DNA of 64,000 nt from a virus. A program made the translations under genes and the position numbers. The notes beneath the pieces were generated by a model. The model did not search any database. It worked only from the letters and a program-made list of their open reading frames with translations, and had not been told where the DNA came from. The stretch spans positions 1 through 64,000 of IMG/VR virus record IMGVR_UViG_2912391263_000005. One strand, given 5' to 3'. Within the stretch, counting starts at the first letter, position 1. Every line of letters starts with the position of its first letter. This document shows positions 40,062 to 43,847 of this stretch, in pieces.

Positions 40062-40151
40062 TTTAATCTTTATACCTTTCTGGATCAACGAAAGTATACT
40101 TTATATAGTCATAACGCCGATGATCGCTACGTGCGTCCGGCACGTCAGTCA
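40062..40151 (-). pseudogene. 3-prime gene remnant, near-identical copy of the 3-prime end of gene 43542..43847
   Basis: One mismatch over about 90 bp versus 43541-43630. Encodes ...TDVPDARSDHRRYDYIKYTFVDPERYKD* on the minus strand. Abuts the IS left end. Confidence 0.6.
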
Positions 40152-40225
40152 TGAATCGGCTACACTAGACTAGACAGAAAAAATAAGGTGTGTAGAATAA
40201 TAAAAAACACACTGGAGGATTTTTC

Positions 40226-40516
40226 ATGTCAAGACGTCAACGAAGAACCTATTCAAAAGAATTCAAACAACAAATCGTCGATCTCTATCTCGCTGGTAAG
40301 CCTCGCGCAGAAATTATTCGAGAGTATGAGCTTACGCCTTCTTCTTTCGATAAATGGATGAAGCAAGCACAATCAACGGGCTCATTCAAAGAAAGAGACA
40401 ACTTAACACCAGAACAAGCAGAATTGATCGCACTAAGAAAGAAAAATAAGCAACTCGAAATGGAGAATGATATTTTAAAGCAAGCGGCGCTGATATTCGG
40501 ACGAAAAGACAAGTAA
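40226..40516 (+). CDS. IS3-family transposase OrfA (HTH)
   Basis: 96 aa. Leucine-zipper/HTH orfA. Confidence 0.8.
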   Translation: MSRRQRRTYSKEFKQQIVDLYLAGKPRAEIIREYELTPSSFDKWMKQAQSTGSFKERDNLTPEQAELIALRKKNKQLEMENDILKQAALIFGRKDK

Positions 40517-41388
40517 TTGATGCCAACAAGCATAAATATTCCATATCAGCGATGTGCAAAATTCTAAATATTTCTCGTCAAACCTACTATTATCAAGCGA
40601 AACCGATCGAAAATGAGTCCGACTTAGAAGAGATCGTTCAGGAAGAGTTTATTCGAAACCGAAAGGCTTACGGTACCCGAAAATTGAAGAAGTGTTTAGC
40701 AAAGCGTGGGCTTCAACTCAGTCGGCGCCGAATCGGTCGAATCATGAAACGCCGCGGATTGACATCTACCTATACGATCGCTCATTTTAAAGGGCAACGA
40801 ACAGCTTGTAATGAAGCGAAAACAGCGAATGTATTAGATCGGACCTTTACACAAGAACAGCCATTGGAAGCCATCGTTACGGATCTTACTTATGTTCGCG
40901 TGGGGAAAAAGTGGCATTATATCTGCTTAATACTTGATTTGTTTAATCGAGAAATTATTGGTTATTCCTGTGGTGAGAAGAAAGATGCCTCATTGGTAAA
41001 AGAAGCCTTTGGACGGATACCGTATTCTTTAACAGACGTCAAGCTTTTTCATACAGACCGGGGAAAGGAATTTGATAACCAAACCATTCATGAGATTCTG
41101 AATGGTTTTGGAATTACTCGTTCATTGAGTAGGAAGGGTTGTCCGTATGATAATGCCGTTGTGGAATCAACCTATAAATCTGTCAAAGTAGAATTCGTGC
41201 ATCAATACCAATTTGAGACACTGGCACAGCTACGTCTAGAATTGTTTGATTATGTGCATTGGTGGAACTATCTACGCTTACATGGCACGTTGGCGTATGA
41301 AACACCGATCCAAATTCGACAACAGAGATTGGCGAAGCGAATCCTTGATAATGAGCGCGGATCTGATACCTCTGGAGAGGCAGCGTAA
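40471..41388 (+). CDS. IS3-family transposase OrfB (DDE/rve), expressed as OrfAB by -1 frameshift
   Basis: The -1 frame opens exactly at the heptamer T_TTA_AAG (40472-40478). DDE integrase-core region (HTDRGKEF...). Table ORF 40552..41388. Confidence 0.75.
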   Translation, partial: YFKASGADIRTKRQVIDANKHKYSISAMCKILNISRQTYYYQAKPIENESDLEEIVQEEFIRNRKAYGTRKLKKCLAKRGLQLSRRRIGRIMKRRGLTSTYTIAHFKGQRTACNEAKTANVLDRTFTQEQPLEAIVTDLTYVRVGKKWHYICLILDLFNREIIGYSCGEKKDASLVKEAFGRIPYSLTDVKLFHTDRGKEFDNQTIHEILNGFGITRSLSRKGCPYDNAVVESTYKSVKVEFVHQYQFETLAQLRLELFDYVHWWNYLRLHGTLAYETPIQIRQQRLAKRILDNERGSDTSGEAA

Positions 41389-41472
41389 TTGAATGATTGT
41401 GCTTCTGCCGGAGAAAATCAGATCCGAGGATGCTCATTGTCAAGGGCAATCGTAGCCATAACACCGCAGCAT

Positions 41473-42022
41473 TCACAACACCTTATAATTTTTGTCAAAA
41501 AAAGTGTTGCCATTCCACTTTTTTAAATATGCGTTCTCTGCTCTTAAACGAATAACTTCTTCTTCAAGAGACTCATCTTTAAGTTTTTTAGGAATGTTTA
41601 GCTTGGAATTCATACTAATTTTTCTGCCCCTTTTTTGGCTCTCAAGTGAAGAAGCACCGCCTTCTTCATATTGCTCTATCCATTTACTTAGAGTTCTATT
41701 TGAACCGATATTAAATTTTTTAGCAGTTTCTTGGATAGAAAGACCATTTGTTTCCATATATTCTATAACATCAAGTTTAAATTTTGTAGTGTAGCTTTTG
41801 CCACCTCCAACCAAGCCTTCCCAACCATGATAGTTATAAATCCTTACCCAATGTCTAACCAGTGTACGATTTATTTGATATTTATGTGCAAGATATTTGT
41901 AGCCGCCTTCGTTATTTAAATAGTCTGAAACTACTTTTTTCTTAAAAACAAATGTATATTTCCGCAAAAAAAGCACCCCTTTTAATTAGATTTCTAGTCT
42001 AACTTTTGGGGTGCACATCATT
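41473..42022 (-). mobile_element. IS3-family (IS150-group-like) remnant: intact orfA, orfB missing
   Basis: 167-aa OrfA-type HTH transposase (41473..41976). Terminal sequence ATGTGCACCCC at about 42010-42022. No DDE orfB follows. Confidence 0.5.
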
Positions 42023-42310
42023 TTTGAGGGGAAGTACATATAGTTGTTGATATAGTTGCTAATATTGTTAGCTAATTTGTTAGTAAAACTGTATACGAAT
42101 TTAGATAGTAAAAAAACAGTTTGTTCCTTATATAGAGGCACTTTTACTACTGATTAAATGTCAGATATGCTTACAAATATACTTATAAATATGCTTACAA
42201 AATTAGCTAATATTTCCGTTGACAAAGCTTTGTTACTATTGTTAAACTAAATTGACTAGCAAAAGTGAAACATAAATTTATTAAATAAATGTAAAAATTA
42301 GGAGAAATCA

Positions 42311-42718
42311 ATGTCTTATAGAGTACAATTAATAATTTCAGAAGATGTAGAAAGTCAGCAATTTGGCACTAATGTTATTAATAAAGTAATTAATCCAGCT
42401 CTTTCTATTAATGCGCCTTTAATTCCTACTGCTTTATCATTTTCTGTAACAGCTGTGGTGTCTGAGATAGAGGATACAGAAAAGATAAAAATAGTAGAAA
42501 TTGAAGTTTTAAACAAGAATGAAAAACAAATTTTTTCTACGGGTGAAGTATCGGTAAGCTTGCCTCCTCAAGTTAACGATATAAACTTTAATATAAACGC
42601 CAGAAATGTCTTGGTTGAAGAAGCAGGAGAGCATTATGCTGTTGTTAAATTTAATGGAACTGAGATTGGAAGGCAAATCTTTGATATCAAGGTCAACAAA
42701 CCAGTGGAAAAAAATTAA
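42311..42718 (+). CDS. hypothetical protein (first gene of 3-gene operon)
   Basis: 135 aa. -35 TTGACA at 42222-42227 upstream. Confidence 0.5.
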   Translation: MSYRVQLIISEDVESQQFGTNVINKVINPALSINAPLIPTALSFSVTAVVSEIEDTEKIKIVEIEVLNKNEKQIFSTGEVSVSLPPQVNDINFNINARNVLVEEAGEHYAVVKFNGTEIGRQIFDIKVNKPVEKN

Positions 42719-42730
42719 GGAGACGATACG

Positions 42731-43133
42731 GATGCTTGATATAGTACCATCAAATACACATCGGAGTGGTAGCTTAATAAATTTTGCTGCGATTTTTGCT
42801 TGCGCATCGGTAATTCTAGCATCTCCAGTTGTTGTGGATGCAAGTTCTACTCCGAAAACTAAAAATGATAATCAACTTGTAATTACTACAAAAAATGAGA
42901 TTAACACAATTTCAAGTAATGATGGCAAAATTTTTGATGTGATAAATACGGTTTTAAAAAGAAAAGCTGAAATCAATATAAAATATGATGAAGATTTAAA
43001 CTTGTATTTCTTTGTTATCAAAACAACATCTGAATTGTTTTCCTCAGATTACGATGTTTTGGATACTCTCGATAATGTATTATCTGACTATAAATATATG
43101 GGGAAATCTGTAGTAGCAACTTTGGGGGAATAA
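42731..43133 (+). CDS. secreted hypothetical protein
   Basis: RBS AAGGAGACG. Signal peptide (AAIFACASVILASPVVVDA). Table ORF 42606..43133 extended upstream. Confidence 0.5.
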
Positions 43134-43134
43134 A

Positions 43135-43506
43135 ATGTTTGACTTTAATGAATATTTATCTATTTCCAAACAAATTGAATCAGATGATAAATATAATTCT
43201 AAAGAATCTTATAGAAGAACTGCTGTTTCAAGAGCATACTACAGTGCTTTTAAAAAATCTGATGAGTATTTGAAAGAAAATTATGATATTATTTATAATG
43301 GAAGTAGCGGAAAAGGAAGCCACCAAACCGTTTGGAATTTGTTTTCAACAGTTAAGGAATTGAATACCTTAGGAATACATAATAGTGGGTATAGAATGTT
43401 AGAGAAAAGAAAATGTGCTGACTATATTCCTAATGAAACCATTACGAAAACAGATATGGCGCTGATGAATCGAGAAGCAGAAAAAATAATAAACAAACTC
43501 ACCTAA
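43135..43506 (+). CDS. HEPN-domain protein
   Basis: RAYYSAF..., SHQTVWNLF, LEKRKCADY align with the classic HEPN pattern (AYYAMFHAA...H..l..F...LR..ADY). Confidence 0.55.
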   Translation: MFDFNEYLSISKQIESDDKYNSKESYRRTAVSRAYYSAFKKSDEYLKENYDIIYNGSSGKGSHQTVWNLFSTVKELNTLGIHNSGYRMLEKRKCADYIPNETITKTDMALMNREAEKIINKLT

Positions 43507-43541
43507 TGAATTTCAAGCGAGTTTGTTTGTTATTTTTTTAT

Positions 43542-43847
43542 TTAATCTTTGTATCTTTCTGGATCAACGAAAGTATACTTTATATAGTCATAACGCCGAT
43601 GATCGCTACGTGCGTCTGGCACGTCAGTCACGATATCAAACAAAAAATATACATCCTTCTTCATTCTAGTTTTCGCAGCAGGAATTTTGAAATAGTTCTT
43701 ATTAGAATAGTAGAGATTGATTAATAAACTATCTTCGATTGCTAAAAAGAAAACTTCTGAATCCCATACTTTATAAAAATCTTTGATAAATCTATTCGAA
43801 GGATCAAATTTAAACCATAATTGCGTCTCATTAAAAAGCATAGCCAT
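43542..43847 (-). CDS. hypothetical protein (second gene of a 2-gene minus-strand pair)
   Basis: 101 aa. Its 3-prime 90 bp is duplicated at 40062-40151. Confidence 0.5.
   Translation of the reverse strand: MAMLFNETQLWFKFDPSNRFIKDFYKVWDSEVFFLAIEDSLLINLYYSNKNYFKIPAAKTRMKKDVYFLFDIVTDVPDARSDHRRYDYIKYTFVDPERYKD

What the first reader, a model, noticed from the sequence alone, without database searches (positions are those of the whole stretch)
40062..43634. 90-bp near-identical direct repeats (40062-40151 and 43541-43630) bracketing the IS elements and a HEPN operon
The two copies differ by a single base.

The right copy is the 3-prime end of gene 43542..43847. The left copy is a gene remnant abutting the IS3 left end (TGAATCGG at 40152).

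The 3.5-kb interval holds an IS3-family element, an IS150-like orfA-only remnant and a 3-gene operon (42311-43506).

This configuration suggests IS-mediated duplication or rearrangement. It makes the interval prone to precise deletion by homologous recombination.
Basis: seen in the sequence. Interest (0 to 1): 0.5.

Follow-up and report, generated by a model that had tools for sequence, protein, structure and literature searches.

The report
IS-made gene-end duplicate in Enterococcus prophage
The 90-base repeat is real, but it is an ordinary scar: the dead tail of a second copy of a small phage gene, cut off by an insertion sequence where two alternative accessory cassettes of Enterococcus faecium prophages were joined.

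Summary
The repeat exists at 40062-40151 and 43541-43630 and cannot be chance. The two copies differ at 3 bases, not 1.

The window is an Enterococcus faecium prophage. The right copy is the last 28 codons plus the stop codon of an intact DUF5960 gene (43542-43847, minus strand). The left copy is the same part of a different DUF5960 allele. It is cut exactly at the left end of a full-length ISEfa8 (40152-41517). ISEfa8 in turn truncates an ISEnfa3 copy (41518-~42020).

The cargo is a conserved three-gene cassette with its own promoter and terminator: a DUF6941 protein, a 133-aa protein and a small HEPN protein.

Related phages show the component states:
- tRNA, spacer and intact DUF5960 with no insert.
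- Lysin, cassette and DUF5960 with no IS.

All 18+ loci of the window type share identical IS junctions, so the joint arose once and then spread by recombination. ISEfa8 has no target-site duplication here. The three differences between the copies are synonymous, and the left copy is identical to a living allele.

This points to an IS-associated fusion of two diverged cassettes, not an in-situ duplication. Loss of the interval by recombination between the repeats is plausible but was not seen. The finding is ordinary and of low interest.

The parts
39476..39549 (+). Phage tRNA with CAT anticodon. It opens the left-hand cassette, which continues with the spacer and a terminator.
   Evidence: ARAGORN and Rfam tRNA at 71 bits. 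It is contiguous with an intact DUF5960 gene in insert-free relatives.
40038..40059 (.). GC-rich hairpin, GGGCTACC-TTTT-TAGGTAGCCT. In insert-free alleles it lies directly downstream of the DUF5960 stop codon.
   Evidence: Terminator scan. The same flank, 'taggtagcctac', precedes the intact gene in L001 and L005-L014.
40062..40151 (-). Left repeat copy. It is a dead 3' fragment of a second DUF5960 allele: the stop codon plus 28 codons and 2 nt. It is cut off by ISEfa8.
   Evidence: It is identical to the living allele of L007, L009, L012 and L013, and invariant in all window-type loci.
40152..41517 (+). ISEfa8, a full-length IS3-family element of 1366 bp. orfA is at 40226-40516 and orfB at 40552-41388, joined by a frameshift. 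There is no target-site duplication (TCA on the left, CTT on the right).
   Evidence: It is 100% identical to annotated ISEfa8 copies on plasmids. Its ends were confirmed on three plasmid copies. Pfam finds HTH_Tnp_1 and rve. The inverted repeats are pair I1.
41518..42020 (-). ISEnfa3 remnant from a second IS3-family element. It keeps the outer end and orfA only; about 0.9 kb including orfB is missing. It is truncated by ISEfa8.
   Evidence: It is 100% identical to 506-507 nt of annotated ISEnfa3 copies. Pfam finds HTH_28 twice. The outer end was placed by comparison with L025 and L021.
42219..42248 (+). Promoter-like site of the cargo operon, TTGACA-18-TAAACT with an upstream TG. It lies outside both ISs.
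   Evidence: This region is also present in the IS-free locus L021, from window position 42025 onward.
42311..42718 (+). Cargo gene 1, a DUF6941 protein of 135 aa.
   Evidence: Pfam PF22091, E = 3.9e-07. phrog_5881, E = 2.4e-32.
42732..43133 (+). Cargo gene 2, 133 aa, with a hydrophobic N-terminus and no family assignment.
   Evidence: No Pfam, PHROG or NCBIfam hit. There is only a weak PADLOC HamC match, E = 2.5e-4. It is annotated as a 133-aa gene in relatives.
43135..43506 (+). Cargo gene 3, a small HEPN-domain protein of 123 aa.
   Evidence: 33 of 54 homologues hit Pfam HEPN PF05168. The family profile hits PDB HEPN proteins 9xbd_A (1.7e-11) and 2hsb_A. phrog_5176.
43481..43538 (.). Long hairpin between the convergent operon and the DUF5960 gene, usable as a terminator in both directions.
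   Evidence: Inverted repeat I7, 20-nt arms, 95% complementary. Terminator scan.
43541..43630 (-). Right repeat copy: the functional 3' end of the intact DUF5960 gene plus 1 nt past the stop codon.
43542..43847 (-). Intact DUF5960 gene, 101 aa.
   Evidence: Pfam PF19385, E = 1.2e-18. phrog_16386, E = 5.5e-47. The exact protein sits next to phage lysis modules in insert-free loci.
43847..44086 (-). 79-aa gene whose stop overlaps the DUF5960 start by 1 nt (TAATG). It is the upstream partner of DUF5960 and the last phage gene before the prophage end.
   Evidence: ORF list. A 76-aa gene is found in the same position in L005-L015.

Best explanation
The window is the right arm of an Enterococcus faecium temperate phage, between the lysin gene and the attachment site. 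Phages of this group carry alternative accessory cassettes here, always followed by a small DUF5960 gene on the opposite strand.

One cassette is tRNA, spacer and terminator. Another is a three-gene unit (DUF6941, a 133-aa protein, HEPN) with its own promoter and terminator. In the window both cassettes are present in series.

The first cassette still carries the last 90 nt of 'its' DUF5960 gene. That fragment ends exactly at the left terminus of a complete ISEfa8. The right terminus of ISEfa8 lies inside a truncated ISEnfa3, which sits upstream of the second cassette and its intact DUF5960 gene.

The joint was therefore made by an ISEfa8-associated event. This was either recombination between two ISEfa8 copies (one in a DUF5960 gene, one in an ISEnfa3) or a deletion running from one ISEfa8 end. 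The event fused two diverged phage arms and discarded the rest of both interrupted genes.

It happened once. The fused module has since spread among unrelated E. faecium prophages by homologous recombination, with the right-hand crossover inside DUF5960.

Shown here: the anatomy, the allele series, the single origin and the lack of a target-site duplication. Inferred: the exact IS mechanism and the order of events. The repeat itself has no function. It is a by-product that could allow RecA-dependent loss of the 3.5-kb interval.
For: - Identity of the parts: ISEfa8 is 100% identical over 1366 bp. ISEnfa3 is 100% identical over 506-507 bp. DUF5960 is a Pfam hit at 1.2e-18.
- Insert-free state: phage vB_ElaS_B1578 and loci L005-L014 run tRNA, spacer, terminator and intact DUF5960 without interruption. 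Window 39476-40154 and 43541 onward map onto one single copy there.
- IS-free cassette state: L021 has lysin, operon and DUF5960 with no left copy and no IS. Its homology starts at window 42025, just outside the ISEnfa3 end.
- The left copy is identical to the living allele of L007, L009, L012 and L013, and its 500-nt upstream flank is 98.8-100% identical to theirs.
- The three differences between the copies are all synonymous third-codon changes (AGG/AGA, TAT/TAC, CCG/CCA; read). This is divergence between functional alleles, not decay after copying.
- The homology between the two contexts begins 1 nt outside the stop codon, which is a gene-border mosaic joint.
- ISEfa8 has no target-site duplication here (TCA against CTT), whereas a plasmid copy has a clean 3-bp TTG. 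Its two flanks are halves of two different interrupted genes.
- All 18+ window-type loci have identical junctions. Their left flank is invariant while the sequence beyond the right copy varies from 64 to 98%.
- The module is carried by excised or circular phage records (4995_1, E8440 'plasmid 3').
Against: - Neither predicted parental or reciprocal junction was found in plasmids, IMG/VR, metagenome or species-representative genome collections. These junctions are the ISEfa8 right end followed by the rest of DUF5960, and the ISEnfa3 interior followed by the ISEfa8 left end.
- A phage with a complete ISEnfa3 upstream of the operon was not found either.
- Two of three plasmid ISEfa8 copies also lack a target-site duplication. 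Its absence is therefore common and only moderately informative.
- The order of events among the three allele types is inferred from parsimony only. In particular, the reading of L018/L019 as a deletion derivative (39913-41758 lost, 2-nt microhomology) rests on this.
Confidence: 0.75

Rival explanations
1. In-situ IS-mediated duplication. One DUF5960 3' end was copied when the IS/operon block was inserted, for example as a long target duplication or by replication slippage. The copies have since drifted apart.
For: The two copies are in direct orientation and bracket the IS-containing block exactly. In most window-type loci they differ at only 2 of 90 positions.
Against: - IS3-family elements make 3-bp duplications (TTG at a plasmid ISEfa8), not 90-bp ones.
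- The sequences outside the stop-codon end of the two copies are unrelated: the tRNA-cassette terminator against the operon terminator.
- The left copy plus 500 nt of flank equals a separate living allele.
- All differences are synonymous. A dead copy would not be expected to keep that pattern.
- IS-free loci carry the operon next to DUF5960 with no second copy (L021).
Confidence: 0.07
2. The repeats are attachment-site duplicates of a small integrative island. A 3.5-kb element would insert site-specifically into the 3' end of DUF5960 and carry a replacement gene end, as many islands do at tRNA or gene 3' ends.
For: The repeat starts 1 nt from the stop codon and restores an intact gene at one end. 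That is the typical picture for elements integrating into gene 3' ends. Insert-free alleles exist.
Against: - The interval encodes no integrase or recombinase other than the IS transposases.
- The left boundary is an IS terminus, not a shared core.
- The operon occurs next to DUF5960 without any left copy in L018, L019 and L021.
- The operon cassette is found at ~61-64% identity at the ends of other contigs, apparently as an ordinary accessory cassette.
Confidence: 0.05
3. Same hybrid origin, but the joint was made by illegitimate recombination and ISEfa8 arrived later by chance at the pre-existing junction.
For: The region attracts many IS insertions. IS256-family and ISL3 elements sit at other positions in relatives (L032, L045, L019). 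L018/L019 show that an illegitimate deletion joint can form here.
Against: A later simple insertion should leave a 3-bp duplication, and none is present. It would also be a coincidence for the IS to sit exactly where both interrupted genes break off.
Confidence: 0.08
4. Assembly artefact: collapsed or mis-joined repeats in an IS-rich region.
For: IS-rich regions are prone to misassembly.
Against: The same structure, to the base, is present in more than 18 independent records. These include closed chromosomes, a phage record and IMG/VR contigs.
Confidence: 0.01

Closest known systems
ISEfa8 (IS3 family) and IS-mediated recombination or deletion joints in Enterococcus faecium mobile DNA
   Same: The element is a complete ISEfa8, identical to plasmid copies. 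It has TG...CA ends, orfA/orfB with a frameshift and a DDE (rve) domain. Its flanks are unrelated and lack a target duplication, the classic signature of IS x IS recombination or IS-adjacent deletion.
   Different: No difference in kind. The particular joint (a DUF5960 3' fragment fused to the ISEnfa3 interior) is just one instance. It is fixed and widely disseminated in prophages rather than plasmids.
Mosaic accessory ('moron') region between lysin and attachment site of temperate siphophages, such as Enterococcus phages vB_ElaS_B1578 and 4995_1
   Same: The position, gene order and exchange of self-contained cassettes at gene borders are the same. vB_ElaS_B1578 shows the uninterrupted tRNA-DUF5960 state, and 4995_1 carries the same fused module at 99.8% identity.
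   Different: Here two alternative cassettes are in series because an IS welded them together. This leaves a 90-nt stub of the displaced gene.
Small stand-alone HEPN proteins (Pfam PF05168; UPF0332 type, e.g. PDB 2hsb AF0298; HEPN of HEPN-MNT toxin-antitoxin pairs)
   Same: Size is ~120-130 aa. The N-terminal motif SRAYYxAF and the C-terminal R-x3-DY are conserved. The family profile matches solved HEPN proteins.
   Different: There is no nucleotidyltransferase (MNT) partner. The partners are a DUF6941 protein and an uncharacterised 133-aa protein. The canonical Rx4-6H motif is absent (R92-x3-D96-Y97, with an invariant H63 elsewhere). No function was tested.

Membership tests
IS3 family / ISEfa8 | Full-length sequence identity to named copies | tested here: met
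   1366 of 1366 nt are identical to plasmid copies annotated 'IS3-like element ISEfa8 family transposase'.
IS3 family / ISEfa8 | Terminal inverted repeats beginning TG and ending CA | tested here: met
   The ends are TGAATCGGCTACAC... and ...GTGTTGCCATTCCA. The 41-nt arms are 71% complementary. The same ends are seen on three plasmid copies.
IS3 family / ISEfa8 | Two overlapping reading frames (HTH orfA, DDE/rve orfB) joined by programmed frameshift | tested here: met
   Pfam finds HTH_Tnp_1 in orfA and HTH_21, rve, rve_2 and rve_3 in orfB. The identical copy is annotated with a programmed frameshift in 4995_1.
IS3 family / ISEfa8 | Short (3-bp) target-site duplication flanking a simple insertion | tested here: not met
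   The flanks are TCA and CTT in the window and in all window-type loci. A plasmid copy shows TTG/TTG. This does not argue against membership. It argues that this copy sits at a recombinant joint.
ISEnfa3 (IS3 family), complete element | Both ends and both reading frames present | tested here: not met
   Only 503-507 nt (outer end plus orfA) match, at 100%. The complete copy in L025 has a 1340-nt transposase gene. The window copy is a remnant.
DUF5960 (Pfam PF19385) | Match to the family profile above the curated cut-off | tested here: met
   Gene 43542-43847 scores 67.7 bits against a cut-off of 24.1, E = 1.2e-18. The left copy covers only the last 28 codons and cannot be scored on its own. 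Its nucleotide sequence equals the 3' end of intact alleles.
HEPN domain (Pfam PF05168) | Match of the protein itself to the HEPN profile | tested here: not met
   There is no Pfam hit at E <= 0.01 for 43135-43506. PADLOC HEPN_IX gives only E = 0.006.
HEPN domain (Pfam PF05168) | Match of the protein's homologue family to HEPN profiles or solved HEPN structures | tested here: met
   33 of 54 aligned homologues hit PF05168, best E = 1.8e-07. The family profile hits PDB 9xbd_A at 1.7e-11, 9xbc_A at 2.5e-10 and 2hsb_A at 2.4e-05.
HEPN domain (Pfam PF05168) | Catalytic Rx4-6H motif of HEPN RNases | tested here: not met
   The invariant residues are R28, R33, Y35, Y36, H63, R92, D96 and Y97. No H lies 4-6 residues after a conserved R, so RNase activity cannot be assumed.
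   There are only two copies in the window at <=12 mismatches. In about 45 related loci the sequence is always the DUF5960 3' end or the IS-truncated stub.
Site-specific integrative island with att duplication | Own integrase or recombinase, and repeat present at both ends wherever the cargo is present | tested here: not met
   The interval has no recombinase other than the IS transposases. The cargo is present without the left copy in L018, L019 and L021.

The most novel reading that the evidence does not exclude
The most novel possibility concerns the cargo, not the repeat. The conserved DUF6941 / 133-aa / small-HEPN triad could be an undescribed phage-borne defence or superinfection-exclusion system. 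The exact HEPN protein is indexed in 10,232 blocks of the assembly collection, and the triad is absent from PADLOC 2.0 as a system. The IS-made 90-nt repeats would then let the prophage lose or regain it as a unit.
Probability: 0.15. Interest if true: 0.5.

Novelty: already known. Interest (0 to 1): 0.15.

Why it matters
It matters little in itself. It is a clean, fully traceable example of an insertion sequence welding two alternative phage accessory cassettes together, with the weld then spreading through a hospital pathogen's prophages by recombination.

Practical value:
- The 90-nt stub is an unannotated pseudogene fragment that explains the odd repeat.
- The identical junction is a convenient marker for this module in E. 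faecium.
- The HEPN-containing triad it carries is very common and functionally untested.

Tried and rejected
- Searched for the two predicted parental or reciprocal junctions. These are the ISEfa8 right end followed by the rest of DUF5960, and the ISEnfa3 interior followed by the ISEfa8 left end.
  - 400-nt chimeric queries against plasmids: no record covered both halves.
  - Gapped exact patterns against IMG/VR, metagenome contigs and species-representative genomes: zero hits.
  - The actual window junctions served as positive controls and gave 15 and 10 IMG/VR contigs.
- Searched IMG/VR for a phage with a complete ISEnfa3 next to a lysin terminator. Nothing was found, but the pattern may have been too strict.
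- Looked for a deletion derivative, meaning an insert-free locus with both flanks identical to an insert-bearing one. None was found among 12 x 17 comparisons.
- Examined L033, which has two ISEfa8 copies at this site, as a possible intermediate. The 1248-bp segment between them is the plasmid tlpA (thioredoxin-like) neighbourhood, not the missing halves of DUF5960 or ISEnfa3.
- Rfam scan of 39200-44800: only the tRNA is a real hit.
- PADLOC and NCBIfam give nothing convincing for the cargo.
- Literature searches for DUF5960, DUF6941, ISEfa8 with prophage, E. faecium prophage HEPN, and vB_ElaS_B1578 found nothing on this locus.
- Structure prediction was not run, because the profile evidence for HEPN was already adequate.
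Full report
**Observation**

The window carries a direct repeat at 40062-40151 and 43541-43630. Searching the 90-mer with up to 3 mismatches finds exactly these two sites. Dinucleotide-preserving shuffles give 0.00 matches, and no further copy appears even at 12 mismatches.

The repeat finder reports 93 nt at 96% identity. The last three bases (TGA against CGA) overlap the IS terminus and cannot be assigned. The longest identical block is 62 nt.

**Context**

The window is an Enterococcus faecium prophage.
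- A tyrosine integrase lies at 1-1146 on the minus strand.
- Tail genes follow, then an Amidase_2 lysin at 38261-39286 and a CAT-anticodon tRNA at 39476-39549.
- Megablast against phage records gives Enterococcus phage 4995_1 at 99.8% over window 38249-43707. It also gives partial matches to Enterococcus phage vB_ElaS_B1578.
- To the right of the prophage lies an ICE-like region with a TED/SpaA/TQ adhesin and a group II intron.

**The parts**

- Gene 43542-43847 (minus strand) is a DUF5960 protein (Pfam 1.2e-18; phrog_16386). A 79-aa gene precedes it and overlaps it by one base.
- The right repeat copy is the stop codon plus the last 86 coding nt of this gene, plus 1 nt beyond the stop.
- Segment 40152-41517 is a complete ISEfa8. 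It is 1366 of 1366 nt identical to annotated plasmid copies. Its ends, TGAATCGG...CCATTCCA, were confirmed on three plasmid copies, one of which has a clean 3-bp TTG duplication.
- Segment 41518-~42020 is the outer end plus orfA of ISEnfa3. It is 100% identical to annotated copies, and about 0.9 kb including orfB is missing.
- The operon at 42311-43506 has a promoter-like site at 42219-42248 and shares a long hairpin terminator (43481-43538) with the convergent DUF5960 gene.
  - Gene 1 is a DUF6941 protein.
  - Gene 2 (133 aa from 42732) has no family.
  - Gene 3 gives no direct Pfam hit. However, 33 of 54 homologues from an exhaustive search hit Pfam HEPN, and the family profile hits solved HEPN proteins (9xbd_A at 1.7e-11, 2hsb_A).
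  - The invariant residues of gene 3 are R28, R33, Y35, Y36, H63, R92, D96 and Y97. The canonical Rx4-6H motif is not present.

So 'HEPN operon' is a fair label, but RNase activity is not implied.

**Allele series in relatives**

- Type A, no insert. This includes phage vB_ElaS_B1578 and loci L005-L014. tRNA, spacer, hairpin and intact DUF5960 are contiguous. Window 39476-40154 and 43541 onward both map onto a single copy of the 90 nt.
- Type B', locus L021. Lysin, operon and DUF5960 are present with no IS and no left copy. Homology to the window starts at 42025, immediately outside the ISEnfa3 end. ISEnfa3 had inserted in the loop of the lysin terminator hairpin.
- Type B, loci L018 and L019. 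Window 39912 is joined to 41759 with 2-nt microhomology. ISEfa8, the left copy and part of ISEnfa3 are absent. This is most simply a 1846-bp deletion derivative of type C.
- Type C, the window type. This includes phage 4995_1, the 38-kb 'plasmid 3' of strain E8440 (an excised phage), several closed chromosomes at different chromosomal sites, and IMG/VR contigs.

**What the comparison shows**

1. All type C loci have the same two ISEfa8 junctions to the base: ccggcacgtcagtca|IS|cttttttaaatatgc. This indicates a single origin.
2. The flanks TCA and CTT are not a target duplication. They belong to two different interrupted genes, and the missing halves of both genes are absent.
3. The left copy is invariant in type C and identical to the living allele of L007, L009, L012 and L013. 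Its 500-nt upstream flank is 98.8-100% identical to theirs.
4. The right copy varies among type C loci (G,T,C in most; G,T,T in the window; A,C,T in 4995_1). The sequence beyond it ranges from 64 to 98% identity. The module therefore moves between phages with a right-hand crossover inside DUF5960.
5. The three differences between the window's copies are all synonymous third-codon changes. That is what two functional alleles look like.
6. The two contexts become homologous 1 nt outside the stop codon, a typical gene-border mosaic joint.

**Mechanism**

An ISEfa8-associated event fused the right arm of a type A phage, broken in DUF5960, to the right arm of an operon-bearing phage, broken in an ISEnfa3 upstream of the operon. 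The event was either recombination between two ISEfa8 copies or a deletion from one ISEfa8 end.

I could not decide between these two. Neither predicted parental junction exists in the plasmid, IMG/VR, metagenome or representative-genome collections. Two of three plasmid ISEfa8 copies also lack a target duplication.

An in-situ duplication is disfavoured by points 3, 5 and 6. A site-specific island is disfavoured because the interval has no recombinase and because types B and B' exist. An artefact is excluded by the 18+ independent records.

**Deletion proneness**

A 62-76-nt identical block in direct orientation makes RecA-dependent loss of the 3479-bp interval possible, and the expected product would look like type A. 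In my sample no type A locus matches a type C locus on both flanks. Type A alleles are also diverse. I therefore read them as ancestral, not as excision products. The claim remains untested.

**Comparison with the known, and verdict**

Every component is a named or catalogued entity: ISEfa8, ISEnfa3, DUF5960, DUF6941 and the HEPN family. The same arrangement is already in public annotated records, and the exact HEPN protein is indexed in 10,232 blocks of the assembly collection. No paper in the searchable library discusses the locus.

The repeat is an IS-made scar in a mosaic prophage arm. It is real and explained, and of low interest. The only open biological question is what the very common DUF6941 / 133-aa / HEPN triad does. 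It is conserved as a unit at ~61-64% identity in other contigs.

Noticed in passing
L033 9022-10269 (IMGVR_UViG_2684622638_000002), equivalent to the window's ISEfa8 site: A relative carries two complete ISEfa8 copies at this site. They flank a 1248-bp segment encoding a TlpA/thioredoxin-like lipoprotein, the same neighbour ISEfa8 has on E. faecium megaplasmids. A plasmid segment has therefore entered the prophage through the IS.
   Followed up: partly
L032 8426-9763, L045 1475-2967, L019 8468-9808 (window equivalents 42028-42035, 41748-41755, 43533-43540): Further ISs sit in the same few kb in other strains. L032 has an IS256-family (Mutator) element, and L045 and L019 have ISL3-family elements. 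In each the window sequence overlaps by 8 bp across the insertion, consistent with an 8-bp target duplication. The arm between lysin and DUF5960 is an IS hot spot.
   Followed up: partly
L002 9446-9662 (phage 4995_1), equivalent to window 43707: In phage 4995_1, homology to the window stops at 43707. DUF5960 is truncated there (annotated as a pseudogene missing its N-terminus) and is followed directly by a different integrase module. This is another recombination joint inside DUF5960.
   Followed up: no
window 39476-39549: The phage tRNA with CAT anticodon is called tRNA-Met by ARAGORN and in vB_ElaS_B1578, but tRNA-Ile in the 4995_1 annotation. Its identity (elongator Met, initiator, or lysidine-Ile) is unresolved.
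   Followed up: no
window 40065-40154, minus strand: The IS junction creates an in-frame ATG (TTC ATG ACT GAC...) in front of the 28-codon DUF5960 stub. This gives a potential 29-aa ORF with no obvious ribosome-binding site. It is probably not expressed.
   Followed up: no
L018, L019, L020 (all from CP131075.1): One E. faecium chromosome carries the DUF6941 / 133-aa / HEPN triad three times, in three different prophages. Two copies lack ISEfa8 and one has it.
   Followed up: no
window 53546-54820 and 47749-52060: A group II intron reverse transcriptase/maturase and a large TED/SpaA/TQ LPXTG adhesin lie to the right of the prophage. The prophage abuts an ICE-like element, as in L007, L009 and L022.
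   Followed up: partly
window 43847-44086 and 43542-43847, minus strand: A 79-aa gene and DUF5960 are translationally coupled (TAATG overlap) and occur as a pair at the end of many E. faecium prophages. This is a toxin-antitoxin-like layout of unknown function.
   Followed up: no
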